A stretch of 64,000 bases of DNA from a plasmid, in sequence record NZ_CP123987.1. One strand, written 5' to 3'. Of the stretch, positions 17,227 to 57,505 are shown in pieces. The position numbers and the translations under genes were made by a program. The notes beneath the pieces are model-generated. The model did not search any database. It was not told the DNA's origin and saw only the letters and a program-made list of their open reading frames with translations. Numbering within the stretch: the first letter of the stretch is position 1; each line of letters opens with the position of its first letter.

Positions 17227-17337
17227 AGTGATTCACACTCCTCTCATTTCTTTAACCAAATCATATAACCTTACTATACTTTTGTCAATAAATTTTAATT
17301 ATAAGTTTGTATTTTCTAATTTTTGGTAAAAATAATA

Positions 17338-17526
17338 TTACTTATTTAATAAACTCTCTAATTCAGCTAAATTGCTTGCTCGTTCTAATTTAGAATCATT
17401 TAAATCATCTATCATCTCTAAGATAGAATAATTTATCCTAGAAGAAGGGGCCCTCCAATCTAATCTACGCACAACTAAAGCTTTTTTAGATTCTATCTTA
17501 ATCTTATTAACTCTACTTTTTTTCAT
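17338..17526 (-). CDS. hypothetical small protein (62 aa)
   Basis: ORF track only. Confidence 0.2.
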   Translation of the reverse strand: MKKSRVNKIKIESKKALVVRRLDWRAPSSRINYSILEMIDDLNDSKLERASNLAELESLLNK

Positions 17527-17643
17527 AATACATCACTTTCCATAAAAGTATACATCCTATTTGTCGACCAAATTTCTAATCGCTCTATTTATACTGTCAG
17601 AAATATCTTCATCACGAAGTTCAGAATATAAATATAATTTTTC

Positions 17644-17910
17644 TTACAAATCTGGTTCTAAGTTAATTACAATGTTCTGCTTGTAAGGTTTTTCAGGAGT
17701 CATATTGTGATTTTTGCAACACTCAAAATAATCATCAATTGTATCTTCAAAATCATCTTTCAATTCTTGTAATGTATTTCCTTCATAGGATAATAAACTT
17801 CTAATCCCCAAAACTTCGCCATGTAAAATATTATCCTCTAAAGAATACTCTATTGTTCCTTTGTAACCTCTATAGCTCATGACTTCTTGCATTTTTATGT
17901 TTCCTTTCAA
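17644..17910 (-). CDS. HicB-like antitoxin-domain protein (88 aa)
   Basis: 'MSYRGYKGTIEYSLEDNILHGEVLGIRSLLSYEGNTLQELKDDFEDTIDDYFE' resembles the HicB N-terminal domain. Confidence 0.45.
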   Translation of the reverse strand: MKGNIKMQEVMSYRGYKGTIEYSLEDNILHGEVLGIRSLLSYEGNTLQELKDDFEDTIDDYFECCKNHNMTPEKPYKQNIVINLEPDL

Positions 17911-17913
17911 TTA

Positions 17914-18195
17914 TTATCTATTTAACTGTATAGTCCAAGTTAAATTGAATAAAAAAACAACATCCCCGTCAACAACGAGGATGTCTTCGATTGTGGTATG
18001 TAGAACCTTACTGAGAATGACTAAGTTATCCAAACTAGGTAGTGATCTACCAGATAACCATTTATAAATGGATTGTGGGTTCTCAAATCCCATAACTGAT
18101 TGAATATCACGTACACTGTACCCATTATTTTTGAATAAACTTTTTAGATTAGCACCAGTTTTTTCTGAATTTATCGAAACATACATTGGCTTCAT
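17914..18195 (-). CDS. XRE-type HTH DNA-binding protein (93 aa)
   Basis: 'YSVRDIQSVMGFENPQSIYKWLSGRSLPSLDNLVILSKVL' HTH pattern; lies immediately upstream of the HicB-like ORF. Confidence 0.4.
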   Translation of the reverse strand: MKPMYVSINSEKTGANLKSLFKNNGYSVRDIQSVMGFENPQSIYKWLSGRSLPSLDNLVILSKVLHTTIEDILVVDGDVVFLFNLTWTIQLNR

Positions 18196-18935: not shown

Positions 18936-18972
18936 CTAATATTCAAAATTAGCTTTTCATCACCCCAAAATA

Positions 18973-19626
18973 TCAGTCTATTCTTTCTAATTCTATACTT
19001 CTAAAGATGAAATAATCTAAAATTGTTAATATCAAAATCCACATTGCACTAAAATAAAGTTTACTATTATCTGCATGAATCAAATAGTTAATAGGCCATG
19101 CTACGAAACACCAATAGGCTGACATTAAAGTTTTATTACTAGCAAAAATAATAAATAAAATCTCTACTAATGAAAATACTAAATTTATATATTTATTAGT
19201 AACCATATATAAAAACATGTGACTATGATTAAGTAATACTATCAATAGCCACATTGCTATTCCGCTGATTATCCCTAATTTAACTTGGGCTATGGAATAA
19301 CTTATTATCCACCATACAAAAAATGAAATCCACCATAATAATAAGTCTAAGATTAACGTTTTTATTGTAAGTAATTTCACTTGACTATACTTACGAACTT
19401 CTTGAAAATTATTTGCTTCTCTTTCTTGTTCAAAGCATATATTAGTTATCACAGAAATTAAAGATGGATAAGCTAGAGCAAATGCCAGTACAATATTTTT
19501 ATAAGTTAGTAAATTTCGATGCCAATACAAATACCCGTAGGCTGATGCAATTTCAAAAATAGTGAAACTTACTAATAGGTATATAGTAGGACTACTTTTT
19601 AATTTTAATAATTCACTTCTAATCAT
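18973..19626 (-). CDS. lanG: lantibiotic immunity ABC transporter permease, NisG-like
   Basis: 217 aa polytopic membrane protein; last gene of an F-E-G triplet. Confidence 0.6.
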   Translation of the reverse strand: MIRSELLKLKSSPTIYLLVSFTIFEIASAYGYLYWHRNLLTYKNIVLAFALAYPSLISVITNICFEQEREANNFQEVRKYSQVKLLTIKTLILDLLLWWISFFVWWIISYSIAQVKLGIISGIAMWLLIVLLNHSHMFLYMVTNKYINLVFSLVEILFIIFASNKTLMSAYWCFVAWPINYLIHADNSKLYFSAMWILILTILDYFIFRSIELERID

Positions 19627-20335
19627 TTGATTTACCCCATCTTGTAAAATATATTAAAAGTAAAGATATCAATAATGAAAGTAATACAGGACTCATAACA
19701 TCAAAAAGTTGTAAATTTATAATTTTAAAAATTCCTGAGGGCTGTACCCCTAATAGATACTGTGATATTTTATAATGGTACGAGTATGGAAATGCAAACC
19801 ACCATTGTGTTTGAGAAATGATAGATCCAAATAATAAACATACTAACGTATTAACTGCTATAAGCAAATAGCCATTTATAAAATTAGCTAAAAAATATAA
19901 CCACGGTATATTCCAAAATACAGATAACAATAACAGAAATATACTTAGTATACTTTTACTTAGTAATAATTCTGTATAACCACTAAAAAACTTATTTAAG
20001 ACAATTACTAGTATTATAAAAAAAAGACTTGATATTGCAACTCGTACAAAGATTAAGAAAATTTTTGCCAAATAAATTTGGAAACTCCACAAATTATACT
20101 TAACATTTTGAAAGTTTCCTGCTTTTTTCTCCATATTAAAATCCATTAAAAATAATAATCCTATTAGTAGGTATAAAAAAACAGATTCCCACCAATATAT
20201 GGCAAAAGGAGAAAAAATAATTACTCCCCCTACTAAAAAAGCAATTAAACCCGTTAATAAAGGGATGATCCATAAAAGTTTGTTTATTCTAACTTTTTTT
20301 AATTTCAATATTTCAGAAAACAAAGCTTTTATCAT
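19619..20335 (-). CDS. lanE: lantibiotic immunity ABC transporter permease, NisE-like
   Basis: 238 aa polytopic membrane protein; overlaps lanF and lanG by 4-8 nt. Confidence 0.6.
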   Translation of the reverse strand: MIKALFSEILKLKKVRINKLLWIIPLLTGLIAFLVGGVIIFSPFAIYWWESVFLYLLIGLLFLMDFNMEKKAGNFQNVKYNLWSFQIYLAKIFLIFVRVAISSLFFIILVIVLNKFFSGYTELLLSKSILSIFLLLLSVFWNIPWLYFLANFINGYLLIAVNTLVCLLFGSIISQTQWWFAFPYSYHYKISQYLLGVQPSGIFKIINLQLFDVMSPVLLSLLISLLLIYFTRWGKSND

Positions 20336-21024
20336 ATGAAACTCTCTCCCTTCATAACATTAAAGAAAATCTCTTCAATATCTTTATAATTACTTTGAAT
20401 TTTATCATATACAACATGTCCTTTATCTAAAATGATAACTTGATCGACGATTCTTCCAATTTCATGTAGCTGGTGACTTGATATCAAAATAGTTACACCT
20501 TGTTTTTTTAATGACTTTAGTAAATCTAAAAATTCAATAACCCCATCAGGATCTAATCCGTTAATTGGTTCATCGAGAATTATAAATTTAGGTTGTGTTA
20601 AAATAGCCATTCCGATCCCCAATCTTTGTTTCATGCCAACTGAAAATTTACCTGCATGTTTTTTATCCGTGCTATCTAAACCAACTCTTTTTAAAACATC
20701 TTTAATTTGATTATTTGGAATATCATATAAAAGTGCTTTAGTTTTTAAATTATCAAAAGCTGATAAATTCGAATAAATTGGTGGTTGTTCAATCAAAGCA
20801 CCAATGTTACTAGTTTTTCCGTGACCTTCAAATAGTACTTGTCCTTTATCTGGTATTTCAATCCCATAAATAATTTTCATTAAAGTTGATTTTCCAACAC
20901 CATTCATCCCAAATAAACCACAAATAGTACCTTTTTCAATCGTAAAGCTTACATCCTTTAATACTTCTCTATCCTGGTATTTCTTAGAAATATTTTTCAC
21001 TTCAATTTTCATCTTATATATCAC
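20332..21024 (-). CDS. lanF: lantibiotic immunity ABC transporter ATP-binding protein, NisF-like
   Basis: Walker A 'GMNGVGKST'; signature 'FSVGMKQR'; Walker B 'ILDEP'. Confidence 0.8.
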   Translation of the reverse strand: MIYKMKIEVKNISKKYQDREVLKDVSFTIEKGTICGLFGMNGVGKSTLMKIIYGIEIPDKGQVLFEGHGKTSNIGALIEQPPIYSNLSAFDNLKTKALLYDIPNNQIKDVLKRVGLDSTDKKHAGKFSVGMKQRLGIGMAILTQPKFIILDEPINGLDPDGVIEFLDLLKSLKKQGVTILISSHQLHEIGRIVDQVIILDKGHVVYDKIQSNYKDIEEIFFNVMKGESFI

Positions 21025-21075
21025 CTTATCTTTAATTATTCGGTAATAGTATAAGTAATTAAATTCATAATTAGA

Positions 21076-22242
21076 TCAGAATTTCTGGATTCCTAACTTT
21101 ACACTCACCCCATCATTTACTAGATTTGTAATTATCATGGTACCACCATGTCTGACTGCAACCGCTTGTGCAAAAGATAGTCCAATTCCATAATGCTTTC
21201 CACTACGGCCTTTATCTTCAGTAAAAAATAACTTTTGCGCATTAACTTGTGCTTCTTCTGAAAATGGTGCCCCATTATTCCATATTTCAAACCATAAAAA
21301 TTTTAAATCTTCAGTTACAGTAACCGATACTTGGGGATTACTTTTATCCGCATACTGACACGCATTAAGAAAAATGTTGATTAGTGCTCGTTTTAGAGCT
21401 GGAACATTAGCATGAAATTTCTTTAAATTAGTTTTTACCTTTAATCGATTATTCGTTTTGTTGACTATGGCAATATCTGTTAGTTCAAGAAAAAGTTCTT
21501 TAATAAATTCATTTAAATTTATTTCTTCGCTTATTGAATTTAAATTTAGTAACTTAGTATAATTAATCATTGTATTAAAATAATTTTCTAAAGTTTGAAT
21601 ACTGTTTTTCATAGATTCCATAAATTCTAATTGTCTCTTATCAGGATTAGTCAGTTCCAACAACTCTATATTTCCTTTTAATACAGTAAGTGGTGTTTTT
21701 ATATCATGAGATAATGCTGCTACCTGAAATGATAAATCTTCTTTTTCTATCCGTTCAGTCTCAATTAAAGTTGATAACTCATTACTTTTTTGATAGAGTT
21801 GCTTTAATACAGTATCAAATTCTTTAATTTTCGACTTAGGATAATCTTTAGTAACCTTATTCCCCATATTTAAAGCAATCTTTTGAATAGCTGTAAAATT
21901 TTTTGAAATCTCATGAATTAGTTTATAAATTGCAATAATGATTATTAATGATTCGTATATAATCAAAAATATATATGATATTTGATTATACGAAAACTTT
22001 CTCAAGACTGGATTAGTAAATTCCGGAACACTATTTTGTCTAATCACTAAGCTATATAACTTATTAGAAGATATAGTATAACTTGTAGTCCCATTTATAT
22101 AACTTTTATTCTTTACTTTAGCTAAGTAGTAATTATCTTTATCATTTTTTTGATATCTACTTGCTACAATTTTTCCTGTTCTCCTATCGAATACAATAAA
22201 GTCATAAGGATATTTTTTCATCGTTTGCCTAATATCCGTCAA
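21076..22242 (-). CDS. lanK: NisK-like sensor histidine kinase, apparently lacking the N-terminal TM1 segment
   Basis: H-box 'LSHDIKTPLTVLKGNIELL'; G-boxes 'GRSGKHYGIGLSFAQ'. Opens with a hydrophilic sensor-domain-like stretch 'MKKYPYDFIVFD...' before a single TM. Only TTG or an internal ATG is available as start. Confidence 0.75.
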   Translation of the reverse strand: MTDIRQTMKKYPYDFIVFDRRTGKIVASRYQKNDKDNYYLAKVKNKSYINGTTSYTISSNKLYSLVIRQNSVPEFTNPVLRKFSYNQISYIFLIIYESLIIIIAIYKLIHEISKNFTAIQKIALNMGNKVTKDYPKSKIKEFDTVLKQLYQKSNELSTLIETERIEKEDLSFQVAALSHDIKTPLTVLKGNIELLELTNPDKRQLEFMESMKNSIQTLENYFNTMINYTKLLNLNSISEEINLNEFIKELFLELTDIAIVNKTNNRLKVKTNLKKFHANVPALKRALINIFLNACQYADKSNPQVSVTVTEDLKFLWFEIWNNGAPFSEEAQVNAQKLFFTEDKGRSGKHYGIGLSFAQAVAVRHGGTMIITNLVNDGVSVKLGIQKF

Positions 22243-22265
22243 AGTAGTTTTATTAGAATCTAATA

Positions 22266-22895
22266 CTAAATAAACTTTATTCGGATTTGATATATATATT
22301 CGGAAATAGATCCAAATAAAGTTTCTGCATATTCGTCATATACATTATTATAAATGTCTTCACGACTATAAATATGAGAAGTCCTTCGTGAGAGCAATTC
22401 TAAAATATCATATTCACGACTAGTCAAAGGAATATCTTGACTATTAACGCATACCCTTCGTTCTTCCAAATAAAAAGTTATTTTCCCCATATCACGCTTA
22501 ACTTCTGCGAAATCCCGAACTGCTTGACGACTACGTTCTTCTCGTTTAATATTTGCATCAATTTTAGCTAATAACTGTTTCAAACTAAAAGGTTTGGTTA
22601 TATAATCATCACCACCAATTTTTAAACCATATAAAATATCTTCTTCATCATCTTTAGCACTTATAAAAATAATTGGCGTTGAAATCTTAGAACGAATCTG
22701 ATAACAAATTTCAGTTCCTGATATCTTTGACATCATAATATCTAATAAAATTAAATTAAAACCCTCAAAATCTGATAATTTTAACGGAACATGAACATTT
22801 TGGCAAGTTACAACCTCATAATTTTTCATTTCTAATGCTGTTTTCATAAGTTTTAAAATTTCTACATCATCATCTATAACTAAGATTCTATACAT
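22266..22895 (-). CDS. lanR: NisR-like OmpR-family response regulator, C-terminal wing apparently truncated
   Basis: Receiver 'VIDDD...LLDIMM' with conserved D/K; wHTH region ends at '...EYIYQIRIKFI*' with no following '...TVRGVGY' wing. Confidence 0.75.
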   Translation of the reverse strand: MYRILVIDDDVEILKLMKTALEMKNYEVVTCQNVHVPLKLSDFEGFNLILLDIMMSKISGTEICYQIRSKISTPIIFISAKDDEEDILYGLKIGGDDYITKPFSLKQLLAKIDANIKREERSRQAVRDFAEVKRDMGKITFYLEERRVCVNSQDIPLTSREYDILELLSRRTSHIYSREDIYNNVYDEYAETLFGSISEYIYQIRIKFI

Positions 22896-22931
22896 ACGTC
22901 CTCTTCCTTATAATAATTTTTATAACTACAG

Positions 22932-24152
22932 TTAAAAATCATCAAATAACATTAATGATTTCATCCATTGCGTTTTCCCTTTATTTGAAAAACACTCATT
23001 TAAAGTTAAAATAATACCCGTTGTTCCCTCAAGAAAGCCTAAATTTCGAATATCTTTGTCAAAAATACTTTCTATTTCATCAGTATAGTTATTTATAAAT
23101 GTATCAAATTTTCTCGTTTTTGTAAGTTTCCTAAATAAAATGCATATCGAAACTATCCCTGACTTGCCATGACAAATCATGTTGGAATCTACATTCCGCA
23201 TTTCCTTAGTAGCTCTATATAGTATTTCTATTGCTTTTTTTATAAGGTATGAATTATCTTGAATTAGTCCAATATATAAATATAAAACACTTATTCCTGG
23301 ACTACCGTAACACCATGCGTCTCTTATAAATAAATCATTATCTTTTAAAATTGTTCTATTATTAACCAATTCATTATAATCTATTCCATCTTTCCAATGA
23401 AATTTATTCTTATCAACTAATTCAAATTTTTCATAAATCTGAATAATCCTTTCTAATCCGTGTAATATTTCCTTTTTCATAAAGCCCTTTTTATACGCAT
23501 AAGCCAATACACTTCCTACACCAGCAAGTCCATGTGACATACCTGTATTTAGACAACCATTAGGATAAATTTCGTTTTCTGCCTCTGACATTTGGTTACC
23601 TGTTTTAATATACATCGCTATCAATGAATCATTATCATCTAATAAGGTTAATAAAAAAATAATAATTTTTGTCACTAATTTGATATCTATATTATCTATT
23701 AAAAGCAGATACATGAGAATTCCTGATAATCCTTCAATCACATCATAATTAGGTGGAGTAACATTTCCAATATTAAACTCTCCAATTTCTTTGTCTACAT
23801 AATAACTAATGTAATCATTTAGACTTGCAATTAAATTTTGAAATCTCAAATCTTTTTTGAGTGGTAATAAACTTAATGCAATCCCAGCTGCACCTGAATA
23901 TAGAGAACCTGTTAAAAGTCCATATTTTGATAACTTTCCATATAAATAGTCACAATACTAATCAATTTTGGACTTATATGTCCTATCTAAATCTTCCATC
24001 TCTAATAACAGTAAAATAACCCCTGGTAATCCCGAAGAAAGCGTGAATTCTTCGAAATTGTATCGATAAGCATTCTGTTCAATTCTCCTGTCCCATTCTA
24101 ATATCACTCTGCCAAATTTATTTTTTAAAATTTTTCTTTTTATTTCTTCCAT
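22932..24152 (-). pseudogene. lanC: LanC/NisC-like lanthionine cyclase interrupted by an in-frame TAG at 23958-23960
   Basis: ORF-track pieces 23958..24152 and 22932..23849 are in the same frame (24152-23849=303). The stretch between them translates to 'YCDYLYGKLSKYGLLTGSLYSGAAGIALSLL', continuous with NisC-like sequence. 'CHGKSG' Zn-ligand motif is present. 407 codons in total. Confidence 0.75.
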
Positions 24153-25938
24153 ATTTTTCTGCCCAATATAGTTCTTGATAGAAACTACAATCTTTTAAAA
24201 GTTCTTCATGAGTTCCAATACCTACTACTCTTCCTTTATTCATAACAATTATTTTTGATGCCTTACGAGCTACATTTAAATCATGTGAGATAAAAATAGA
24301 TATATTATCTTTGGATAGATTTACAAAATAATCAAATATTTCTTTTTCTGAAATTGGATCTAGCGCTGCACTTGGTTCATCTAATATATATACAGAAGCA
24401 TTTTTAAAAAAAGCTCTAGCCAAAGCTATTTTTTGCCACTGACCACCTGATAATTGCCTCCCATTTTGGAACCAAGTTCCTAATTGTAAATTTAAATTAT
24501 ATTCTCCATTCTCTTTTAAAAAATTTAACCTTAATTTATCCATAATATGTATAATCTTATTATCATCCCACTTCTCTGCAATATTACCAAGACCAATATT
24601 TTCCCTTAAAGTTAGCTCATATTTAACAAAATCTTGGAATAATATCGATATATTCTTTTGATAAAAATCTGTCGATATATGCTTATCTTCAATACCGTTA
24701 TAATATATATGACCTTTAGATGGTGTGTATAACTCTGAGATTAACTTTACTAGAGTACTTTTACCAGATCCATTTTCCCCTATTATCGCAATTAGTTCCC
24801 CTGTATGCATAGAAAAGTTTATTTTTTCTAAAGCATTGACAGAAGAGTTAGGATACTTATATTCAACATCTATTAGATCTATCCTTTTTATTCTGTTCTC
24901 ATCACCTATCCCTATGTTTTCACGATAATCACTTTGATTTTCTATTTTCAAAAAATTAAGTAATTGCTCCATAAACAAACTAGTATTATAAATAATATAA
25001 ATATTTTGTATGATTGTTTGTGAATAGCCATTTATCTTTGTAATTGCTTGCATAAGACTAACTAAATTTCCTATTAATATTCTTCCAGCTTGTACAGATA
25101 CTATAATAGTGCATATAACAAAAATATTGATAAAGTCTAATAAAATTTGAAGTCCCGAATTAAAATATGCTTTCTTTCTAGCAATAAGCAAATCTTGTAA
25201 TATAAAATCTTTTTTTAATTTCTTATACTCTTCCACAAAATAATCACTTAAATTATTTAATTTAATTTCCTTAAAAGAAAAGTCATGTGTCAATAAATAA
25301 ACTATATACCACGACTTTCTTTCTGCACTCGCTCTTTTCCATTGTATTAAAAATTCAAGTTGACCTACTTTTAAAAATATAATTAAAGATAACATAGGAG
25401 TTACTAATAACAGCAATCCTATCCATATGTTCCACGCCGCAACAAAAATCAAACTAGTCAGTAAAGATATAAAAGCAGCCAGCATAGTAATAACAGCATT
25501 AAAAAGTTGAAATGGTTTATACGTACTATCCTGTGTTATTTTCTCAATAAGATTATACATATCTGATTGTTCATAATCTGTCAACTTTAAGGAGGTTGTT
25601 TTTTTTATCAATTTTAAATTAATATTGTAAGAAAGCCACATATTAAATTTTCCGTTTATATAATTTTCTAATTGAGATAATATTACCGTAAATATTTGTA
25701 GTATTAAAAAATAAATAATATTATATACAAGCTGCATTCCTCGACTAAATATACTATTGATCAGATTTTGATAAACTATTAAATTTAATAGCGGAATTAA
25801 TGCCGTTACTATATTTAAGCACATTAAGTATGTTGCATATTTTCTTTCTAATTGAAAAATTAACTTAATCGTATCTGGAAGTGTTAATAATGTCTTAAAA
25901 AAATTTTTTGATGTTAGTTTTTTTATTTCATCCATCAT
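24118..25938 (-). CDS. lanT: NisT-like lantibiotic export ABC transporter (no C39 peptidase domain)
   Basis: 606 aa; six N-terminal TM segments then Walker A 'GENGSGKST', 'LSGGQWQK', 'ILDEP'. Start ATG overlaps the lanB stop (TAATG). Confidence 0.85.
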   Translation of the reverse strand: MMDEIKKLTSKNFFKTLLTLPDTIKLIFQLERKYATYLMCLNIVTALIPLLNLIVYQNLINSIFSRGMQLVYNIIYFLILQIFTVILSQLENYINGKFNMWLSYNINLKLIKKTTSLKLTDYEQSDMYNLIEKITQDSTYKPFQLFNAVITMLAAFISLLTSLIFVAAWNIWIGLLLLVTPMLSLIIFLKVGQLEFLIQWKRASAERKSWYIVYLLTHDFSFKEIKLNNLSDYFVEEYKKLKKDFILQDLLIARKKAYFNSGLQILLDFINIFVICTIIVSVQAGRILIGNLVSLMQAITKINGYSQTIIQNIYIIYNTSLFMEQLLNFLKIENQSDYRENIGIGDENRIKRIDLIDVEYKYPNSSVNALEKINFSMHTGELIAIIGENGSGKSTLVKLISELYTPSKGHIYYNGIEDKHISTDFYQKNISILFQDFVKYELTLRENIGLGNIAEKWDDNKIIHIMDKLRLNFLKENGEYNLNLQLGTWFQNGRQLSGGQWQKIALARAFFKNASVYILDEPSAALDPISEKEIFDYFVNLSKDNISIFISHDLNVARKASKIIVMNKGRVVGIGTHEELLKDCSFYQELYWAEKYGRNKKKNFKK

Positions 25939-28898
25939 TATTTCCCTTTCAAAATATATTTTTCAGACATAATCATTTTTTTTACAATAAAATACAGATT
26001 TTGTTCCCTAACCCTATTAATTCCAAATAACCTATTATTATGTACATGTATAATACTATCCATAATAGTGTCAGCATTTTTTTTATCAATTATTAATTTT
26101 AGTTTTTTAATCTCTTCCTTAAGTCTATTAAAGTTGTATTTGTCAATCTCATATATGTCAGTTAACTGATTAAATACTACACTTTTATAGTATTGTATTT
26201 TAGACCTTACATTTTTATCTACCTTATTGGGACAGACTTTATCTAGAAAACATAAAATGTCTTCATTTGTTTTATAAAATATTTTTAAATAAAAATAAAT
26301 CATTGCAACTGCAATATCATCAAGTTTATCTTCCATGTTCTTTTCTTTTATAAATTTCAAATACTTTATTACAAGTTTAGAATCTTCACAGAAAATATTT
26401 TCAGCTATATCTATTGCATTAACTCCTCCATATCTCTCAATTTCGCGATCATATGTAGAAATATCAAAAGTCGATAAAATACCATTTCTATGACCTTGCT
26501 CCAAATCTTTTTTAATAACTTCATATATTTTATATAAATTATTACCACTTATCCTTATCCTTATTTGTGGTACTGGATCCATATAACGTAAGAAAAATAG
26601 TTTTCCGTCTAATTTTTCTACCTTTTTTTGAATCAGAGGTATGTAAACTCGTATAAACTCTTCTTGTCTCCTAGTCGACATATACACTTTTAGATATAAC
26701 CAATCATTGAATGGCAATTTCTCTCGAACATGTTTGGAGATTCTCTGTTGTTTTTCCTTGTTTACTTTTTTAACATCGAATTTACTATTAATAACTGGAA
26801 CCACTATCTCTGATATTTTTCCTTCACTATCTTTATATATCATGTCTTTATTATTAAAATATTCTTGTATAATGGCATGACCATTCTTTTCTATATTTCT
26901 TTTTATTTCTGACATAAACAGTTCAACATCAAGTGAATTTTTACGATTAATATATAGTTTGTTATCACCGTCAACAATATAAATTTCATTCGGTATATTT
27001 CTCTGCTTTATAATCGACTCTATTGCTATATTACTTAATTCAAATTTAAATATTCTCCATGTCTTAGGACTGACTACTATATCCTCAAACATAATTCGTG
27101 GAATAAAATTCATATCTTTATAGATTAAATCCCATGGTACATATCCAAAATTATTATTTATTGAAATTTCACATAAAAATCTTAGTTCATTACTAAATAA
27201 TGTCTTGTTATACATGCTTGTTACATAAAACTTCATTTTTTCTTGAGTAGACACATCATACGCATAAAAATTTTCATTTTCATCTAATCCAATATAAATA
27301 TTAGTTAGCCTTACTTCAGATTGATCAGTACTTGAGAAAATAGGAAGAACTTTTTCTCTTACAAAAGATGTTCGCATTATATTAGCGTGTCGTATATTTT
27401 CAGGAAGAAAAACTATTTCACAAGACGTCACCCCTTCTTCAATATTTGCAGCTTTCACTTGTTTAAGTGTCTTCATGTGATAATCCCTTAATTTATCTGA
27501 TAATAATGAGAACCTTCCAGAGGATCCCCCTATATTATTACTGCCTATAATATTGCTTAATGCTAAAGTTTTCTTCTTATTAATTTGGACCATATGAAAA
27601 AATAATTCTATTCCTTGTATTGAGGTACTTTCTTTGGAATTCAGATTTCTATAATAATTAGAAAAGCATTTCAAATTAATTTCCTCTCTATTTAATAAAG
27701 CTTCTATATATTTATTAATATACATTTCTTTTTCATCATGGGAATAATATGACGTTGGAGGCTCTAATTCAAAAACTTCATTCTGAGGATGCGTATAATC
27801 ATACGGTGCGCCAATTCCTTTTATTGGATCAAATAGTTCTATTAACTGCACATCTTGATCAATACCATATTTTTCAATGAATTTATCTTTATAGTCATCA
27901 AAATAAGTCCTAGTTACTGATTTAACAGTATTAGTTATAAAATTTGAAAATTTCTCTATTCTTTGTTTATTACTATTATCAATATATATATTCCCATCAT
28001 TATATAAATCTACTTGAATATAATTATCACTTTTATTAAGTCTAGCCATTTGGTGATATATTTCAATTAATTTATCAGAACCCGAACCTATTTCAATATG
28101 TGTATATTCTTCAATTAACTCTTGTATCTTTGTTAATATTTCTACATATTTTTTACTAACATCTATTTCCCTAACTTTCATTATGAAGTCTGACATAGAA
28201 AAATTAATTAGTATATTTTCTTGTAAATTTGATATTAGATAATGATTCTCTACTAAATCATTAATATATTCTTTTGTTAAATTTAAGTATTCATTACCAT
28301 ATATTGTTATAACCTTTTCTATGATTTCACTATATGTCTTATAAGTTTGGCTACACTCTTCTGATATAATTCGATAAACTTTAGAGTTATTAATACTAAC
28401 TTCCTCTAAATCTTGATCATTTATTGAATATAATTGCATAACACGATTTCCACTAATGTAATTTCCATTATTAGATATGAAAGATAAGTTTGATTGATAG
28501 TCCTTTTCTAATTTAAAAATTACATCTGTTAACCATTTAATATCTATAAAAACTACTTTGTGTGTTTTCCCTAATTCTTTCTTATCACCCTTAACGGTAA
28601 ATTTACCATTAGAAGTTTCACTAAATAGTCCAAAAGGAGTTGCTCGATAATAGCTCCTTTTATAATATTTATATATTGATTCAAAAAAATTTTTTTCTTT
28701 CTTTTTCTTTAGTTTTCCTGCATTATACTTTTTAAGCATTCCATACAGCTTAGGATTAGCCAATAATATTTGTTCAAGAAAAATATTATCATTTTTAATA
28801 ATTTCAATAAATTCCTTATAATTATTGAAATTTTGACTTTTTTCATATGTTTGAATTGTATTACGTATCATTACATCACTAACATTGAAATTATTCAT
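25938..28898 (-). CDS. lanB: LanB-type lantibiotic dehydratase (NisB-like)
   Basis: 986 aa; N-terminal 'FLEQILLANPKLY...KYNAGKLKKKKEK..FESIYKYYKRSYYRATPFGLFSETS' closely parallels the NisB N-terminus (R.TPFG motif); size matches NisB at about 993 aa. Confidence 0.9.
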   Translation of the reverse strand: MNNFNVSDVMIRNTIQTYEKSQNFNNYKEFIEIIKNDNIFLEQILLANPKLYGMLKKYNAGKLKKKKEKNFFESIYKYYKRSYYRATPFGLFSETSNGKFTVKGDKKELGKTHKVVFIDIKWLTDVIFKLEKDYQSNLSFISNNGNYISGNRVMQLYSINDQDLEEVSINNSKVYRIISEECSQTYKTYSEIIEKVITIYGNEYLNLTKEYINDLVENHYLISNLQENILINFSMSDFIMKVREIDVSKKYVEILTKIQELIEEYTHIEIGSGSDKLIEIYHQMARLNKSDNYIQVDLYNDGNIYIDNSNKQRIEKFSNFITNTVKSVTRTYFDDYKDKFIEKYGIDQDVQLIELFDPIKGIGAPYDYTHPQNEVFELEPPTSYYSHDEKEMYINKYIEALLNREEINLKCFSNYYRNLNSKESTSIQGIELFFHMVQINKKKTLALSNIIGSNNIGGSSGRFSLLSDKLRDYHMKTLKQVKAANIEEGVTSCEIVFLPENIRHANIMRTSFVREKVLPIFSSTDQSEVRLTNIYIGLDENENFYAYDVSTQEKMKFYVTSMYNKTLFSNELRFLCEISINNNFGYVPWDLIYKDMNFIPRIMFEDIVVSPKTWRIFKFELSNIAIESIIKQRNIPNEIYIVDGDNKLYINRKNSLDVELFMSEIKRNIEKNGHAIIQEYFNNKDMIYKDSEGKISEIVVPVINSKFDVKKVNKEKQQRISKHVREKLPFNDWLYLKVYMSTRRQEEFIRVYIPLIQKKVEKLDGKLFFLRYMDPVPQIRIRISGNNLYKIYEVIKKDLEQGHRNGILSTFDISTYDREIERYGGVNAIDIAENIFCEDSKLVIKYLKFIKEKNMEDKLDDIAVAMIYFYLKIFYKTNEDILCFLDKVCPNKVDKNVRSKIQYYKSVVFNQLTDIYEIDKYNFNRLKEEIKKLKLIIDKKNADTIMDSIIHVHNNRLFGINRVREQNLYFIVKKMIMSEKYILKGK

Positions 28899-28977
28899 TT
28901 TTTCAAGCCCCTTTCACCTATTAAAAAAATGGGATAGCAAATCATCAAATTGATCTACGCTATCCCTTACTTTCTTA

Positions 28978-29157
28978 CTATTTACTTATATGTACATGAC
29001 AACCACATGATGCAGTTTTCATTGTACATCCCATTAGTGCACCTGTTTTGCAACCTGGGGTACAAAGTGAGTAGCTTGTAATTTTAACTGAATAATTTGA
29101 ATTTGTACTTTCCTTTGATACTTTTACTAAATCCAATTTAAAATCATTAACACTCAT
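28978..29157 (-). CDS. lanA: nisin-like lantibiotic precursor, 59 aa: MSVNDFKLDLVKVSKESTNSNYSVK-ITSYSLCTPGCKTGALMGCTMKTASCGCHVHISK
   Basis: Hand-translated; absent from the ORF track. AGGAGG RBS 10 nt upstream. 'F(N/K)LDL' leader box. 34-aa core differs from my recollection of nisin A at 7 positions, with all ring-forming Ser/Thr/Cys conserved. Lies immediately upstream of lanB. Confidence 0.85.
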   Translation of the reverse strand: MSVNDFKLDLVKVSKESTNSNYSVKITSYSLCTPGCKTGALMGCTMKTASCGCHVHISK

Positions 29158-29184
29158 TTAGAAAACCTCCTAATAACCCTTTAA

Positions 29185-29245
29185 TTGTTTGTTCTAGAAC
29201 GTCACTATAATATGTTATTATTTTCAGATTTTGTTCAGAATACAT
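29185..29245 (-). promoter_or_regulatory. putative lanA promoter with a NisR-type TCT-N8-TCT direct repeat
   Basis: Minus-strand 'TCTGAACAAAATCTGA' (forward 29224-29239) sits about 13 nt upstream of a TATTAT/TATAGT -10-like box, echoing the TCT-N8-TCT operator of nisA/nisF promoters. Confidence 0.4.
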
Positions 29246-29382
29246 ATTATTTAAACTGATAATTTTAAAACCATGGAAAAATCTTTAAAATAAAAAATGC
29301 CAAAGATTAACATTTCAGCAATGTAACCTTCAGCATTTTCTTAACTTAAACTATTTTTAATTAGATTCAATTCTAATATTTT

Positions 29383-46700: not shown

Positions 46701-48306
46701 AAGTTACAGATTGGTCTGCTATTAAAACTGTACTCCTAAAAGCTGGTACTCTTACTAGTCCAGGAAATATCACTGCTGAATTGCCGTTCAAAGTTACTGA
46801 GATGAAAGATGGAGAGATTAATACTAACGTAATCTTCAACACTAACTTCACTGGTTTTCATAATGCAATTACTCATAGTAATCCACAACTAGCACTTAAT
46901 GTGCAACGTTATATCAACGTTACTACCAAATGGGTAGACGATGATACTGATCAAGAGCTAGCTCCAAGTACTACCCAAATGGTACGCTCTGGCGATACTT
47001 ACCAAACTATCGCTAAGCCAGCTGATCTTAATCCAAATTATCGTCTTGAACGTGTAGAAGGAAATCAATATGGAGTTACTGGTGCTAATGATCTTATTGT
47101 TACTTACCATTACAAGGCTCTAACAGATGACTCGTTAAAAGAAAGCAAATCCATAACTAGAACTATTAACTATGTGGTTAATGATGGTCAAGTCCAAGCT
47201 CCAGATACGGTAGTCCAAGCTGTTACTCTCATTCGCCATGGAAGTAAGAACTTGGTAACTGGTAATATAACTTGGGGACAATGGAGTGATGATCAATGGA
47301 ATGAAGTTGTTTCTAAAACAGTTAAGGATATCACCCAGATAAAGAATCTGTAGCTCAACAAAAAGTAACAACAAACACTGATAATACAACAATAACTGTA
47401 CACTATATTAAGAATCCGATTGTATCTTCTACTGAAAGCAAGACTGTTAAACGTACTATTAACTATCTCGTTGATGGCAATGAAGTTTCTGCTCCAGATT
47501 CCGTAAACCAAGAGTTCACCTTCTCTCGTGATGTATTCACTGATACCATCACTGGTGATGTTACCTACGGTAACTGGAACGTCGATAATACTTCTTTTGA
47601 AGCTGTCGATTCTCCTTCATTGAAGGGTTATACTCCGGATCTTAAATCTGTTACGGCTTTAACTGTTACTCCAGATACTAAGGACACAGTCATTACTGTT
47701 ACTTATACTAAGAATCCAATTGTAACTTCTACTGAAAATAAGACGGTTAAACGTACTATTAACTATCTCGTTGATGGCAATGAAGTTTCTGCTCCAGATT
47801 CCGTAAACCAAGAGTTCATCTTCTCTCGTGATGTATTCACTGATACTGTCACTGGTGATGTTACCTACGGTAACTGGAACGTCGATAACACTTCTTTTGA
47901 AGCTGTCGATTCTCCTTCATTGAAGGGTTATACTCCGGATCTTAAATCTGTTGCGGCTTTAACCGTTACTCCAGATACTAAGGACACAGTCATTACTGTT
48001 ACTTATACTAAGAATCCAGTTGAAGTTCAACCAACTCCTAAACCAACAGAATCGGTTGACTCAAATAAGACTGATCCTGCTGATTCAACAAATACAATGA
48101 CAAAACATGTTAACTCAACTACAGTAACTGCTAAATCACAAATAATAAATCAAGTTGTTCCTTCCCAACCAGTTACAAAATCTAAGAAACTTCCACAAAC
48201 TGGTGAAGAACATAATAGTTTAGCTACTATCGGTCTCTTAATACTTTCATTAGCAACTGGCCTTGGTTTAAAGAAACGAAAAAAAATTAATCTTTTAATT
48301 GATTAG
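43793..48306 (+). pseudogene. very large LPXTG-anchored surface adhesin with MucBP-like repeats; reading frame broken by a 1-nt deletion in a C-run (47334-47336)
   Basis: KxYKxGKxW-like signal peptide, then a Ser/Thr/Asn-rich region. The 1186-aa ORF ends 'VKDITQIKNL*' but the -1 frame continues 'PDKESVAQQKVTT...' into the 47620..48306 ORF, which ends with 'LPQTGE', a hydrophobic stretch and 'KKRKK'. Confidence 0.8.
47400..48017 (+). repeat. two near-identical 300-bp tandem repeats (about 100-aa modules) within the adhesin
   Basis: 47411-47710 and 47711-48010 align base for base with only a few mismatches; a third copy begins at 48011 and then diverges. Confidence 0.85.
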
Positions 48307-54168: not shown

Positions 54169-54963
54169 TTAAACTGTTTTCAAATTATACCTTTCAATCA
54201 AACTTTTCATTTTAGCCTTACTTCTCCTAGGAAAAGTCTCCTTATATCCATCTTTAAAAGAAATACTCCTTGTTGACAGGTTAATTTCAACAATATTACT
54301 TGGATTAGCTAAACAAGATTGTGATATTTTTTCTAGAAAATCATTTTCTACCTCTAACTTCTTAATATCGCCTGTAAACTCACCCATACCATTAACTGTA
54401 ACTATTTTCAATCTATGTGACTTAGGAGTGGTAATAATATATAGAATATCATTGATATTTTCGTTAATAATTCTTCTGCCCATTTTATAGCTAAATGTCA
54501 TTTTCTTTATGGCATGAGATTCCCTAATTCTCCTTGCAGCTAATGATAAAGTCTCATTTAGTCGTTTTTGAATCACTTCATCATTATCATTTTTAGTAAT
54601 AAAATCCAATGCTCCAGTACGACGTCGATAAGTCATTGCTGCTAGATTTTCATAAGCTGTAATAAAAATTATCTGTGCATTTGGATCTTTTTGTCTAATA
54701 AATTCAGCTAAATCTATCCCATCTCTATCTGCTTTATCTTTACTAAGTTCAATATCTAAAAAATAAACTCCACTATCTACTTTGTTATCTTCCAAATAAT
54801 CGGCTACTTCAATATAACTATTAGCTTCCAAAGTTATTTTAAATTTTTTACCTTTACTGTCAGCAGAATCTTCTAAAGACCAAATAGCATATTTAACTAG
54901 ATCATGTATCCTTCTAACTTGATCCTTCTCATCGTCACAAATAATAATTCCATATTCTTCCAA
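54169..54963 (-). CDS. LytTR-family response regulator (AgrA/PlnC/AbpR-like)
   Basis: 264 aa; receiver domain plus C-terminal LytTR DNA-binding domain; immediately downstream of the HPK10-type kinase. Confidence 0.85.
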   Translation of the reverse strand: MEEYGIIICDDEKDQVRRIHDLVKYAIWSLEDSADSKGKKFKITLEANSYIEVADYLEDNKVDSGVYFLDIELSKDKADRDGIDLAEFIRQKDPNAQIIFITAYENLAAMTYRRRTGALDFITKNDNDEVIQKRLNETLSLAARRIRESHAIKKMTFSYKMGRRIINENINDILYIITTPKSHRLKIVTVNGMGEFTGDIKKLEVENDFLEKISQSCLANPSNIVEINLSTRSISFKDGYKETFPRRSKAKMKSLIERYNLKTV

Positions 54964-54976
54964 ATTAAACTACCCC

Positions 54977-56175
54977 TTAAATGCTCATAACCATAAGGAA
55001 AGTAAACCAACCATCTTTAATTTGATAATTAATAAAAATATCATTATAAGATTGACTTAATTCTTCTATATTAGCTAATCCTAATCCGTCATGATTCTTC
55101 TTAGTTGTAAAACCTGATTTTTTTATATCTTGAATTGTTAGATCGGTATCTCGATAACGATTTCTAATCTCAATTTCAAGTTCACCATTTTCTTGATAAA
55201 TCATAGTATCTATCTTAGCTTCATCACCAAACTCAAGACTTTCTTCAATTGCATTATCGTACACAATTCCTAATATTCTAACAATGTCAAACGAGTTATA
55301 CTTATTCGACAAGTTTTCTATCACAATTCGACATTCAAAAGAATATTGAATATTGTTTTGAAAGATTCTATTCAACTTACTGATAAATAGACTCTTTAAT
55401 AATTCATCTTTAACATTGTCAACATCATTAAACTGCCATAATACTTTATCTTCTAAAGTCTTACTTGAATATTCAGCTAGTTTATCTATTAACTCTTTAT
55501 CATGACTTTTTTTACACTGAGTTTCAAGCTTAATAGCATATTTTGATAATCGTGCTTAAATTTACGTAAACCTCGCTGGCTACTTTCTAACTGTTGTGTA
55601 TAAATTTTTAGATCATTAATTTGTTGTAAACTTAATTTATCCTGCCGTATTTTCTTATTAATGGAATATACAAATAATGAAAAGAACAATTGGCTAACAA
55701 CAACTACCGTAGCTATAATATACGATACTGCATCTATATTAAATACATATGTTGTTAGATAGTAAATAACCATTGAACTAATCCATATGTATAAAATTAA
55801 ATAAAAATACAATAATCCATACTCATCATCTAGTTTCTCTATTATAGTCGTCTTTGTTAAAATTATATATTCAAAAATGTTTAATGACACATCTAATATT
55901 ATCACACTGACCATTGTGTAATAATTTGTAAATAATGTAAAAAATAATGCTGAAGCACCGAATGTTATATAGGAAAATAAATCTAGCATTAACAACCTTC
56001 CACATAATCTGTAATCCAAAGTTAGTTGTCTGTATACAATATAAAAAATAAAAATTTCAATAAATGGTGCAAAAAAACCAATAATATCTCCAACACCATT
56101 AATTAAAAGAATTACAGGAAAAGTAAGAAGTATAAATAATAAATTATACTTCTTACTTTTCCTAGTAGGGGTCAA
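54977..56175 (-). pseudogene. AgrC/HPK10-type bacteriocin quorum-sensing histidine kinase, frameshifted in an A7 homopolymer (forward T7 at 55507-55513)
   Basis: The N-terminal ORF has polytopic membrane helices and the H-box 'FKHDYQNMLLSL'. The C-terminal ORF has the ATPase domain. Adding one A restores a continuous frame: '...LSVKKSHDKELIDKLAEYSSKTLEDKVLWQFNDVDNVKDELLKSLFISKLNRIFQNN...'. Confidence 0.8.
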
Positions 56176-56263
56176 AAGATAAAAAAACTATATCTACAAA
56201 AAGTATTTATAAATAAAATTAGTGTAGCTACTATATAACCAGATGTTGAATTTAAATTAACCA

Positions 56264-56380
56264 TTATTTACAAACACCAAAAAATGTGAATATACATTGC
56301 CATCTTTTAAAGCCACCCTTTTTGGTTGCTCCCCCAGCTATTTTCTGTAACTTCTTTTCTGTTAACACTTCAAACTTCAT
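56264..56380 (-). CDS. GG-leader induction-peptide precursor (38 aa): MKFEVLTEKKLQKIAGG-ATKKGGFKRWQCIFTFFGVCK
   Basis: Hand-translated; absent from the ORF track. GGAGAG RBS 8 nt upstream. Double-glycine leader followed by a cationic two-Cys mature peptide. Lies directly upstream of the kinase. Confidence 0.65.
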   Translation of the reverse strand: MKFEVLTEKKLQKIAGGATKKGGFKRWQCIFTFFGVCK

Positions 56381-56499
56381 AAAAAATCTCTCCTTTGTTA
56401 TCTTTATTACAAATATAGTTTAACATTTTTTAATCTACTTTATTCGTTTTTTATCATATTCGGTTCATTTTAATGCTTATTTGGATGAAATTCTTAAAA

Positions 56500-56688
56500 C
56501 TATAGCCACCACATAAAATTTAACACCCACGCTCTCACATAACTTATTTTCTTATTCTTTTCTATGACTTTCTCATCAAATAACTTATGATGCCCCTCTT
56601 CTTTTAGACTAGTATAAATACTGATAAAAATACTATATGCAACTATTACAGTAATCCCAAATATCATATACTCACTTCCTAATCCCAA
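56500..56688 (-). CDS. small membrane protein (62 aa), possible immunity or accessory protein
   Basis: N-terminal TM segment; located between the beta peptide and the induction peptide. Confidence 0.3.
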   Translation of the reverse strand: MGLGSEYMIFGITVIVAYSIFISIYTSLKEEGHHKLFDEKVIEKNKKISYVRAWVLNFMWWL

Positions 56689-56811
56689 AATATATTATGT
56701 TCTATTAAAAATAAAAGTAGTGTCAAATTTAGCTATATACTATAACTTACACTTGACACTACTTGAAGAAAAATAGATTTATTTCTTATTTTCTAATTCA
56801 TTAGACTTATT

Positions 56812-57018
56812 CTAACGGCAACTTGTAAAGCCACCAGAAATTCCACCCGCTACGGCTGACCAGGGTCCACCGATAGCTCCAATTAAAGCTCCACCTACGA
56901 TGCCAGCTCCACAGTGAACCCAGCGATTTCCACTACCACCATAACCATTTTTACCACCATTTACTGATGCTAAGTTATCTTCAGTCATAATTGTGAATCT
57001 TTTATCTAGATTTTTCAT
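56812..57018 (-). CDS. class IIb bacteriocin beta prepeptide (ABP-118beta / LafX-like): leader MKNLDKRFTIMTEDNLASVNGG, mature KNGYGGSGNRWVHCGAGIVGGALIGAIGGPWSAVAGGISGGFTSCR
   Basis: GG leader; GxxxG-rich two-Cys mature peptide; 'NRW' and 'GPW' motifs shared with lactacin F LafX. Confidence 0.9.
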   Translation of the reverse strand: MKNLDKRFTIMTEDNLASVNGGKNGYGGSGNRWVHCGAGIVGGALIGAIGGPWSAVAGGISGGFTSCR

Positions 57019-57035
57019 TTTAAATTACTCCTATA

Positions 57036-57239
57036 TTATAAACAAGTAAGTGCTCCGCCTACCATTCCTAAGTTTGCTCCACCTACAATACCAGCTGGTC
57101 CAAGTGGAACTCCTGCAGCTGCTCCAGCAAATAGACCACCTAAAAAGTTACCTACACAGTTAGGACCACGTTTCCCACCATCAACCTTTGCTAACTCACA
57201 TTCTGTCAATACTGTAAATTCCTTCATCATGATAATCAT
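57036..57239 (-). CDS. class IIb bacteriocin alpha prepeptide (ABP-118alpha-like): leader MKEFTVLTECELAKVDGG, mature KRGPNCVGNFLGGLFAGAAAGVPLGPAGIVGGANLGMVGGALTCL
   Basis: GG leader; GxxxG-rich two-Cys mature peptide. True start is probably the MKEF Met at about 57227. Confidence 0.9.
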   Translation of the reverse strand: MIIMMKEFTVLTECELAKVDGGKRGPNCVGNFLGGLFAGAAAGVPLGPAGIVGGANLGMVGGALTCL

Positions 57240-57505
57240 CCTTTCATATGTTTATTTACTTTCATCGCAGTATCTAATAAGTAAAGTAGTGTACTACCAC
57301 CTACTAGACAAAAAATAGTGACTATTATCATTTTAGGCGTTTGAATATAATCTAAATAAGACATTTCCTCATTACCAAACAGCCATATTCCTAGTGGAAT
57401 CAATAGTGCCCAAATAACTGGAGCAATAACATATCTCTTCTTTCCTCTAATGAATCCACCATCCAACCAAGTCTCCCATAGTTTTTTTAGCATGTAAGAA
57501 CACAC
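57236..57505 (-). CDS. small polytopic membrane protein (89 aa), putative bacteriocin immunity protein
   Basis: Three TM segments; overlaps the alpha-peptide start (ATGA). Confidence 0.55.
   Translation of the reverse strand: MCSYMLKKLWETWLDGGFIRGKKRYVIAPVIWALLIPLGIWLFGNEEMSYLDYIQTPKMIIVTIFCLVGGSTLLYLLDTAMKVNKHMKG

What the first reader, a model, noticed from the sequence alone, without database searches (positions are those of the whole stretch)
18973..29245. Complete nisin-type class I lantibiotic cluster (A-B-T-C-R-K-F-E-G) with an unannotated precursor and no nisI or nisP
Hand translation of the gap upstream of the 986-aa gene gives a 59-aa precursor. Its 34-aa core, ITSYSLCTPGCKTGALMGCTMKTASCGCHVHISK, keeps every ring-forming residue of nisin. 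By my recollection it differs from nisin A at 7 positions: I4Y, N20T, T25S, H27G, S29H, I30V and V32I. The 986-aa protein is a LanB dehydratase, not a LanM; its N-terminus parallels NisB around the R.TPFG motif. It is followed by a NisT-like exporter with no C39 domain, NisC-, NisR- and NisK-like genes, and an F-E-G immunity transporter. No lipoprotein immunity gene (nisI) or subtilisin-like leader protease (nisP) is present in the cluster. The island sits between an oppA-like gene and a PTS/ldhD block, so it is probably horizontally acquired. A nisin variant from Ligilactobacillus salivarius (name recalled as nisin S) and kunkecin A have been reported, but I cannot verify whether this is identical to either.
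Basis: partly seen in the sequence, partly recalled or inferred. Interest (0 to 1): 0.85.

Follow-up and report, generated by a model that had tools for sequence, protein, structure and literature searches.

The report
Decayed copy of known nisin S cluster
This is the already published nisin S lantibiotic gene cluster on a Ligilactobacillus salivarius megaplasmid, but this copy carries a stop codon in the ring-forming enzyme gene and a 203-bp deletion in its regulator genes, so it probably makes no active nisin.

Summary
The 59-aa precursor at 28978-29157(-) is real. Its leader and 34-aa core are identical to NssA/nisin S of L. salivarius P1CEA3 (Sevillano 2023, PMC10095417). That paper already reports the gene order nssABTCRKFEG, the lack of nisI/nisP and the 3347 Da product.

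The window is collinear at 99.95% with megaplasmid pLS2102-15_1. The cluster is a 10.4-kb low-GC island between an oppA-like gene and a PTS IIC gene.

- nssC has CAG(Gln65)->TAG at 23958-23960.
- A 203-bp deletion between two 26-bp direct repeats removes the 3' end of nssR and the start and first membrane helix of nssK.
- Apart from these two lesions the cluster is base-identical to the complete pLS2102-15_1 cluster.

Both lesions recur in independent assemblies: the nssC fragment in 106 index blocks, the truncated NssR in 9 contigs, against 2025 blocks for NssA. [quoted passage not shown] The window's Abp118 locus also fits that description.

Verdict: already known, and a recently inactivated allele. 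Interest is low.

The parts
18949..29350 (-). Nisin S genomic island. It is 10,402 bp here and would be 10,605 bp with the deleted 203 bp restored. GC is 26.6%.
   Evidence: Comparison with the empty-site plasmid pHN3 of CECT 5713: this stretch replaces 46 bp. GC is 0.266 against 0.324 for the rest of the window.
29224..29239 (-). TCT-N8-TCT motif (TCTGAACAAAATCTGA) at the -35 position of the nssA promoter. It resembles the NisR box of PnisA.
   Evidence: Exact pattern match upstream of nssA. The resemblance to PnisA is from my own knowledge of the L. lactis promoter. Binding was not tested.
28978..29157 (-). nssA, intact: a 59-aa prepeptide with a 25-aa leader (FKLD box, Lys at -1) and a 34-aa core.
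   Evidence: Translation. Identical to published NssA. PF02052 scores 33.3 bits against a cut-off of 21, and TIGR03731 scores 52.5 against 29.3.
28922..28977 (-). Hairpin followed by a U-run between nssA and nssB. It is a likely attenuating terminator, as between nisA and nisB.
   Evidence: RNA fold gives -21.2 kcal/mol with z = -6.0. The function is inferred by analogy.
25938..28898 (-). nssB, intact: a 986-aa LanB dehydratase.
   Evidence: Pfam N- and C-terminal domains. NisB structure 4wd9 matches at 1023 bits over residues 3-982. Identity is about 52% over the first 618 aligned residues.
24118..25938 (-). nssT, intact: a 606-aa ABC exporter without a C39 peptidase domain.
   Evidence: ABC_tran and a weak ABC_membrane hit only.
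22932..24152 (-). nssC pseudogene. It is a LanC cyclase reading frame interrupted by TAG at 23958-23960 (Gln65->stop).
   Evidence: An in-frame stop in an otherwise continuous frame. The base is C in 8 of 9 other copies and T here and in L007. The intact 406-aa form matches NisC 2g02 at E = 5e-123. There is no Shine-Dalgarno sequence before the internal TTG of the 305-aa remnant.
22266..22895 (-). nssR, truncated to 209 aa from 229 aa. The C-terminal part of the DNA-binding domain is lost and the protein ends ...YQIRIKFI*.
   Evidence: Trans_reg_C matches only profile positions 2-56 of 77. Compared with the intact 229-aa NssR.
22272..22297 (-). Deletion junction. A single hybrid copy remains of the 26-bp direct repeat ATATATATCAAATCCGAA[C/T]AAAGTTT, and 203 bp are missing.
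   Evidence: BLAST pieces overlap by 26 bp against all 9 other copies. The two repeats lie at L001 16861-16886 and 17064-17089.
21076..22242 (-). nssK remnant. The histidine kinase lacks its start codon and first membrane helix. The longest ORF is 388 aa from a TTG.
   Evidence: HisKA and HATPase_c are retained. The intact protein is 447/440 aa with membrane helices at 19-37 and 150-168, and the remnant keeps only one. No Shine-Dalgarno sequence precedes the remnant starts.
21065..21080 (-). TCT-N8-TAT motif (TCTGATCTAATTATGA) upstream of nssF. It is a candidate NssR-dependent promoter.
   Evidence: Pattern match with one mismatch. The role is inferred.
20332..21012 (-). nssF, intact: the 226-aa ATPase of the immunity ABC transporter.
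   Evidence: The best NCBIfam hit is TIGR03740, the lantibiotic protection ABC ATP-binding subunit. It scores 252.5 bits, below the cut-off of 309.75.
19619..20335 (-). nssE, intact: a 238-aa permease.
   Evidence: TIGR03732 (MutE/EpiE family) scores 93.2 bits, below the cut-off of 145.2. Six hydrophobic segments.
18973..19626 (-). nssG, intact: a 217-aa polytopic membrane protein. The name rests on position and hydrophobicity only.
   Evidence: No Pfam or NCBIfam hit, and no detectable similarity to NssE. At least five hydrophobic segments. Named nssG in PMC10095417.

Best explanation
The locus is the nisin S biosynthetic gene cluster (nssABTCRKFEG) on a repA-type megaplasmid of Ligilactobacillus salivarius.

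How the intact cluster works (steps inferred by homology with the L. lactis nisin system unless marked):
- NssA is dehydrated by the LanB enzyme NssB.
- It is cyclised into five thioether rings by the LanC enzyme NssC.
- It is exported with its leader by NssT.
- The leader is removed after Lys-1 by a protease encoded outside the cluster.
- The mature 3347 Da peptide (shown by mass spectrometry in P1CEA3) would signal through NssK/NssR to the TCT-N8-TCT promoters of nssA and nssF.
- NssFEG pump the peptide away from the producer's membrane.

How this copy differs:
- A C->T change turns codon 65 of nssC into TAG.
- Recombination or slippage between two 26-bp direct repeats has deleted 203 bp. 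That removes the C-terminal part of NssR's DNA-binding domain, and the start codon and first membrane helix of NssK.

Predicted result: no auto-induction of nssA and nssFEG, no ring formation, and therefore no active nisin S from this strain. The decay is very recent, because the other 10.4 kb of the cluster are base-identical to the complete cluster of pLS2102-15_1. The nssC stop came first. It is common and is found with an intact R/K, while the deletion is rare and nested within that lineage. The window matches the published description of plasmid p612A of strain AR612.
For: - Identity: the prepeptide matches NssA exactly. The computed mass is 3491.2 Da, or 3347.0 Da after 8 dehydrations, as published.
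- Replicon: the window is collinear with NZ_CP090412.1 over 64 kb at 99.95%.
- Enzymes: NssB and the intact NssC align full-length with NisB and NisC. The GMSHGLAG, DAWCYG and MICHG motifs are kept.
- Lesions: the in-frame TAG and the 203-bp deletion between repeats.
- Consequences: the Trans_reg_C match is cut at profile position 56 of 77. The remnant NssK keeps one of two membrane helices and has no Shine-Dalgarno sequence.
- Not artefacts: the 64-aa NssC fragment is in 106 index blocks from unrelated samples, and the 209-aa NssR is in 9 contigs. Neither lesion lies in a homopolymer.
- Order of events: all 10 loci shown with the nssC stop have a 229-aa NssR. L010 and L012 carry both lesions.
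[quoted passage not shown] The window's abpR is intact at 264 aa with a truncated abpK, as described for p612A.
- Promoter motifs lie in front of nssA and nssF.
Against: - No expression or production data exist for this exact sequence. Loss of function is inferred from gene structure.
- The promoter motif has no statistical weight of its own (3 matches against 4.3 expected with one mismatch). Only its position supports it.
- I could not align the window with p612A or pMP1CEA3, because neither is in the searchable collections. The match to p612A therefore rests on the paper's verbal description.
- NssG has no detectable family.
Confidence: 0.9

Rival explanations
1. The cluster is still functional. 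The TAG in nssC would be read through, or the two NssC pieces would complement each other. Transcription would come from basal or cross-activated promoters, so that some nisin S is made.
For: nssA, nssB, nssT and nssFEG are intact and identical to a complete cluster. All NisC active-site motifs lie in the 305-aa remnant.
Against: - There is no tRNA, and so no suppressor, in the window.
- No Shine-Dalgarno sequence precedes the internal TTG.
- The remnant lacks about 100 N-terminal residues of the cyclase.
- NssR has lost the end of its DNA-binding domain, and NssK its start and first membrane helix.
- The authors of PMC10778751 mark such ORFs as putatively non-functional.
Confidence: 0.05
2. 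The two lesions are sequencing or assembly errors in an otherwise complete cluster.
For: Many indels in other copies lie in A7-A8 or T7 runs and could be errors.
Against: - The lesions here are a base substitution and a repeat-bounded 203-bp deletion, not homopolymer slips.
- Both recur in independent assemblies: 106 blocks and 9 contigs.
- Both are reported in the literature for p612A.
Confidence: 0.03
3. The decayed cluster is kept as an immunity-only module. A non-producer would retain nssFEG to survive nisin S made by neighbouring L. salivarius.
For: - nssF, nssE and nssG are intact.
- 10 of the 24 contigs read for NssA have a gene layout that differs from the intact one. Loss of production therefore seems frequent.
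Against: - The nssF promoter carries an NisR-box-like motif, so nssFEG expression probably needs the deleted NssRK.
- The lesions are so recent (no other difference in 10.4 kb) that intact FEG needs no selection to explain it.
- Even the producer P1CEA3 is partly sensitive to nisin S.
Confidence: 0.2

Closest known systems
Nisin S cluster nssABTCRKFEG of L. salivarius P1CEA3 megaplasmid pMP1CEA3 (Sevillano et al. 2023, PMC10095417)
   Same: The 59-aa prepeptide is identical. The gene order, the absence of nisI and nisP, the megaplasmid location and the neighbouring SalB/Abp118 locus are all the same.
   Different: P1CEA3 makes the 3347 Da peptide, so its cluster is functional. The window has nssC Gln65->stop and a 203-bp nssR-nssK deletion.
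Defective nisin S cluster of plasmid p612A, L. salivarius AR612 (PMC10778751, section 3.3 and Fig. 3b)
   Same: The paper reports a truncated nssC with deletions in nssR and nssK. Its Abp118 locus has a truncated abpK, no abpT/abpD and, by implication, an intact abpR. All of this matches the window.
   Different: No difference is detectable from the paper's description. Base-level identity could not be checked because p612A is not in the searchable collections.
Complete nisin S cluster of pLS2102-15_1 (NZ_CP090412.1)
   Same: It is base-identical across the cluster except for the two lesions, and collinear over 64 kb at 99.95%.
   Different: It has a 406-aa NssC, a 229-aa NssR and a 447-aa NssK. 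Its abpR is split.
Nisin A cluster nisABTCIPRKFEG of Lactococcus lactis
   Same: The order A-B-T-C...R-K-F-E-G is shared. NssB and NssC are about 52% identical to NisB and NisC and align full-length. The ring-forming Ser/Thr/Cys residues are conserved. There is a TCT-N8-TCT promoter motif and a hairpin after the structural gene.
   Different: There are seven core substitutions (I4Y, N20T, T25S, H27G, S29H, I30V, V32I). The leader ends in Lys instead of Arg. There is no nisI and no nisP.
Kunkecin A of Apilactobacillus kunkeei
   Same: It is a nisin-like lantibiotic from a lactobacillus relative. Tyr4 and the lack of nisI are shared.
   Different: Its core is 39 aa (ITSYVLCTPGCITGRLMGCNNKTKTCHCHSSNHFSFHAR) and its gene order is different.

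Membership tests
Nisin S (NssA) | Prepeptide sequence identical to published NssA (leader MSVNDFKLDLVKVSKESTNSNYSVK plus core ITSYSLCTPGCKTGALMGCTMKTASCGCHVHISK) | tested here: met
   The translation matches Table 2 and Table S3 of PMC10095417. The printed Table S3 core reads 'MTKTA', a garbled extraction. Table 2 and PMC13032696 give the same string as the window.
Gallidermin/nisin family lantibiotic | Score above the curated cut-off of TIGR03731 and PF02052 | tested here: met
   TIGR03731 scores 52.5 against 29.3. PF02052 scores 33.3 against 21.
Class I lanthipeptide cluster | LanB dehydratase with both the glutamylation (N-terminal) and elimination (C-terminal) domains | tested here: met
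   PF04738 at 288 bits and PF14028 at 140.8 bits. Full-length alignment with NisB 4wd9.
Class I lanthipeptide cluster | Intact LanC cyclase | tested here: not met
   An in-frame TAG at codon 65. Other copies encode a 406-aa NssC that matches NisC at E = 5e-123.
Nisin-type cluster | LanT exporter without a C39 peptidase domain | tested here: met
   Only ABC_tran and ABC_membrane hits.
Nisin-type cluster | Intact NisR/NisK-like two-component system | tested here: not met
   A 203-bp deletion leaves NssR at 209 aa instead of 229, and NssK without its start and first membrane helix.
LanFEG immunity transporter | F, E and G subunits belonging to the lantibiotic-protection ABC families | tested here: inconclusive
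   F has its best hit to TIGR03740 but below the cut-off (252.5 against 309.75). E hits TIGR03732 below the cut-off (93.2 against 145.2). G has no hit and no similarity to E, and is only a polytopic membrane protein.
Nisin family | Five (methyl)lanthionine rings and eight dehydrations in the mature peptide | not testable with these tools
   The ring-forming residues are conserved. The 3347 Da mass was published for P1CEA3, and the ring pattern was only proposed there.
p612A-type defective allele | Truncated nssC together with deletions in nssR and nssK, and an Abp118 locus with a truncated abpK and no abpT/abpD | tested here: met
   The window features match the description in PMC10778751. A base-level comparison was not possible.

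The most novel reading that the evidence does not exclude
Inactivation of the nisin S cluster may be recurrent and selected in gut L. salivarius. Non-producers would keep nssFEG as 'cheaters'. The 26-bp repeat pair in nssR and nssK would act as a built-in deletion hotspot that switches production off. Of the 24 contigs read for NssA, 10 have a gene layout that differs from the intact one. The nssC stop alone accounts for about 5% of NssA-carrying index blocks.
Probability: 0.15. Interest if true: 0.35.

Novelty: already known. Interest (0 to 1): 0.1.

Why it matters
It matters little for discovery. Nisin S, its cluster and a defective allele of this kind are already in print.

The practical point is that genome-mining tools, or a reader, would call this strain a nisin S producer from the precursor and the gene order. 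The two lesions predict that it is not a producer. That is relevant when L. salivarius strains are chosen as bacteriocin-producing probiotics.

The exact definition of the lesions gives simple PCR or sequence markers to separate producers from non-producers. The markers are Gln65->TAG in nssC and the 203-bp deletion between the 26-bp repeats.

Tried and rejected
- Checked whether the short lanC, R and K ORFs were only start-codon artefacts of the ORF list. They are not: six-frame translation and alignment to nine other copies show real lesions.
- Looked for mobile-element signatures at the island ends. The only shared 9-mer, TCTAATATT, lies in the conserved flanks on both sides, so it is not a target-site duplication.
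- Looked for a leader protease or a nisI-like gene. The island has no spare coding space, and no protease is annotated in the near-identical plasmid across the 64 kb.
- Looked for an amber suppressor tRNA and for structured RNAs. No tRNAs and no Rfam hits were found.
- Scanned representative genomes with NssB. The only hit was a 6.3-kb MAG contig at 98% identity, which says nothing about the donor lineage.
The frequency of the intact allele is therefore judged only from NssA counts and from the contigs read.
- The generic promoter/terminator scan was uninformative in this AT-rich DNA: 81 sites found against 83.6 expected.
- tblastn of NssG against plasmids found only the same cluster.
Full report
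**Observation.** The region holds nine co-oriented minus-strand genes between 18973 and 29157. The small ORF at 28978-29157(-) translates to MSVNDFKLDLVKVSKESTNSNYSVKITSYSLCTPGCKTGALMGCTMKTASCGCHVHISK and has a GGAGG ribosome-binding site upstream. It scores above the curated cut-offs of PF02052 and TIGR03731. The 986-aa protein carries both LanB domains and aligns over residues 3-982 with NisB at 1023 bits. The 606-aa exporter has no C39 domain.

**Identity.** The leader and core are letter-for-letter those of NssA/nisin S from Ligilactobacillus salivarius P1CEA3 (PMC10095417, Table 2 and Table S3). That paper already reports the following:
- the order nssABTCRKFEG;
- a 10,385-bp cluster;
- the absence of nisI and nisP;
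- Lys at position -1 of the leader;
- a 3347 Da product, consistent with eight dehydrations.

I reproduce the mass arithmetic: 3491.2 Da unmodified and 3347.0 Da after eight dehydrations. Kunkecin A has a different 39-aa core.

**Replicon and island.**
- The window is collinear over all 64 kb, at 99.95% identity, with plasmid pLS2102-15_1 of L. salivarius 2102-15 (NZ_CP090412.1).
- RefSeq annotates the precursor in that record as a gallidermin/nisin family lantibiotic. It is therefore not unannotated in public records.
- Against the cluster-free plasmid pHN3 of CECT 5713, window 18949-29350 replaces only 46 bp.
- Island GC is 26.6%, against 32.4% for the rest of the window.
- The same slot holds a type I restriction-modification system in pR1 and a DUF3800 gene in badger strains. 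It is a variable site, which supports horizontal acquisition.
- I found no transposase, no integrase and no target-site duplication at the borders.

Other copies of the cluster encode a 406-aa NssC, a 229-aa NssR and a 440/447-aa NssK. In this window they are damaged.
- *nssC.* The frame is interrupted by TAG at 23958-23960. The base is C (CAG, Gln65) in eight of nine comparison copies. The 305-aa downstream ORF keeps the NisC active-site motifs. It lacks about 100 N-terminal residues and has no ribosome-binding site.
- *nssR and nssK.* A 203-bp deletion has occurred between two 26-bp direct repeats, ATATATATCAAATCCGAA[C/T]AAAGTTT. One repeat lies near the end of nssR and the other inside nssK. 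A single hybrid copy remains at 22272-22297.
- *Effect on the proteins.* NssR ends prematurely at 209 aa, and its Trans_reg_C match stops at profile position 56 of 77. NssK loses its start codon and the first of two membrane helices that flank the presumed sensing loop.
- *Everything else.* Apart from these two lesions the cluster is base-identical to the complete pLS2102-15_1 cluster. The decay is therefore very recent.

**Are the lesions real?** Neither lesion is a homopolymer slip.
- The 64-aa NssC fragment occurs in 106 index blocks from unrelated JGI, SRA, ENA and DDBJ samples. All ten loci shown have an intact 229-aa NssR.
- The 209-aa NssR occurs in nine contigs. The six shown are all from runs SRR269088xx, and two of them also show the split nssC.
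- NssA itself is indexed in 2025 blocks.
- The nssC stop is therefore a circulating allele, at roughly 5% of NssA-carrying blocks. The deletion is a rare later event within that lineage.

**Already published.** PMC10778751 (section 3.3) states that pLS2102-15_1 has a complete nisin S cluster. [quoted passage not shown] The same paper describes the Abp118 locus of p612A as having a truncated abpK and no abpT/abpD, whereas pLS2102-15_1 also has a truncated abpR. The window has an intact 264-aa abpR and a fragmented abpK. The window therefore fits p612A or a very close relative. I could not align the records directly.

**Mechanism.** By homology with the L. lactis system, the intact cluster works as follows:
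1. NssB dehydrates NssA.
2. NssC forms the rings.
3. NssT exports the peptide with its leader.
4. An unlinked protease cuts after Lys-1.
5. NssKR sense the product and activate the nssA and nssF promoters.
6. NssFEG give immunity.

The supporting sequence features here are these:
- a TCT-N8-TCT motif at the -35 position of nssA (29224-29239);
- a one-mismatch version of that motif before nssF (21065-21080);
- a strong hairpin with a U-run between nssA and nssB (-21.2 kcal/mol, z = -6.0).

These roles are inferred, not shown. In this copy, loss of NssRK should abolish induction and loss of NssC should abolish cyclisation. I predict no active nisin S.

**Weak points.**
- F and E match the lantibiotic-protection families only below their cut-offs.
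- NssG matches nothing, so its name rests on position and hydrophobicity.
- The promoter motif is not statistically enriched on its own.
- No phenotype is available for this exact sequence.

**Verdict.** This is a known system, and a known kind of defective allele. Novelty: already known. Interest: low.

Noticed in passing
window 54169-57796 (minus strand): A second bacteriocin locus lies here. It includes salivaricin B (57 aa, 57623-57796), Abp118 alpha and beta (57036-57239 and 56812-57018) and the inducer peptide AbpIP (56264-56380). abpK is fragmented (54977-55375 and 55489-56175), abpR is intact at 264 aa (54169-54963), and there is no abpT/abpD. This matches the published non-producing Abp118 locus of pMP1CEA3 and p612A.
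   Followed up: partly
L002-L008 (other nisin S clusters), mapped to window 25983, 26084, 26629, 25606, 20181 and 20502: Many other copies carry their own lesions:
- nssB shortened to 974 or 971 aa, or split;
- nssT split;
- a 1-bp deletion in nssE;
- a nonsense codon in nssF (170 aa).
All the indels lie in A7-A8 or T7 runs, so they may be real slippage or assembly errors. Of the 24 contigs read for NssA, 14 had the intact gene layout.
   Followed up: partly
L001 16861-16886 and 17064-17089 (intact clusters); window 22272-22297: Intact nisin S clusters contain a 25/26-identical 26-bp direct repeat, with one copy in nssR and one in nssK, 203 bp apart. This is a ready-made deletion hotspot, and it explains the lesion in this window.
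   Followed up: yes
window 17304-17947 and 18949-29350, compared with L016 and L017: The stretch between the oppA-like gene and the PTS IIC gene is a variable slot of the megaplasmid. pHN3 has a chloride-channel gene where the window has 644 unrelated bases. pR1 has a type I restriction-modification system with a xerA-like recombinase. Badger strains have a DUF3800 gene.
   Followed up: partly
window 17338-18195 (minus strand): A HicB-family antitoxin gene (17644-17892), an HTH regulator gene (17914-18195) and a 62-aa hypothetical gene lie just left of the island, by transfer of the RefSeq annotation from the near-identical plasmid. No HicA toxin gene is annotated next to them.
   Followed up: no
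window 47404-48022: A 300-bp tandem repeat (2.1 copies, 95% matches) lies inside the large MucBP-domain surface-protein gene.
   Followed up: no
L030 (DVII01000253.1): A 6.3-kb contig binned into a MAG named Candidatus Coprovivens excrementavium encodes a 98%-identical NssB. It is probably an L. salivarius megaplasmid fragment that was mis-binned.
   Followed up: no
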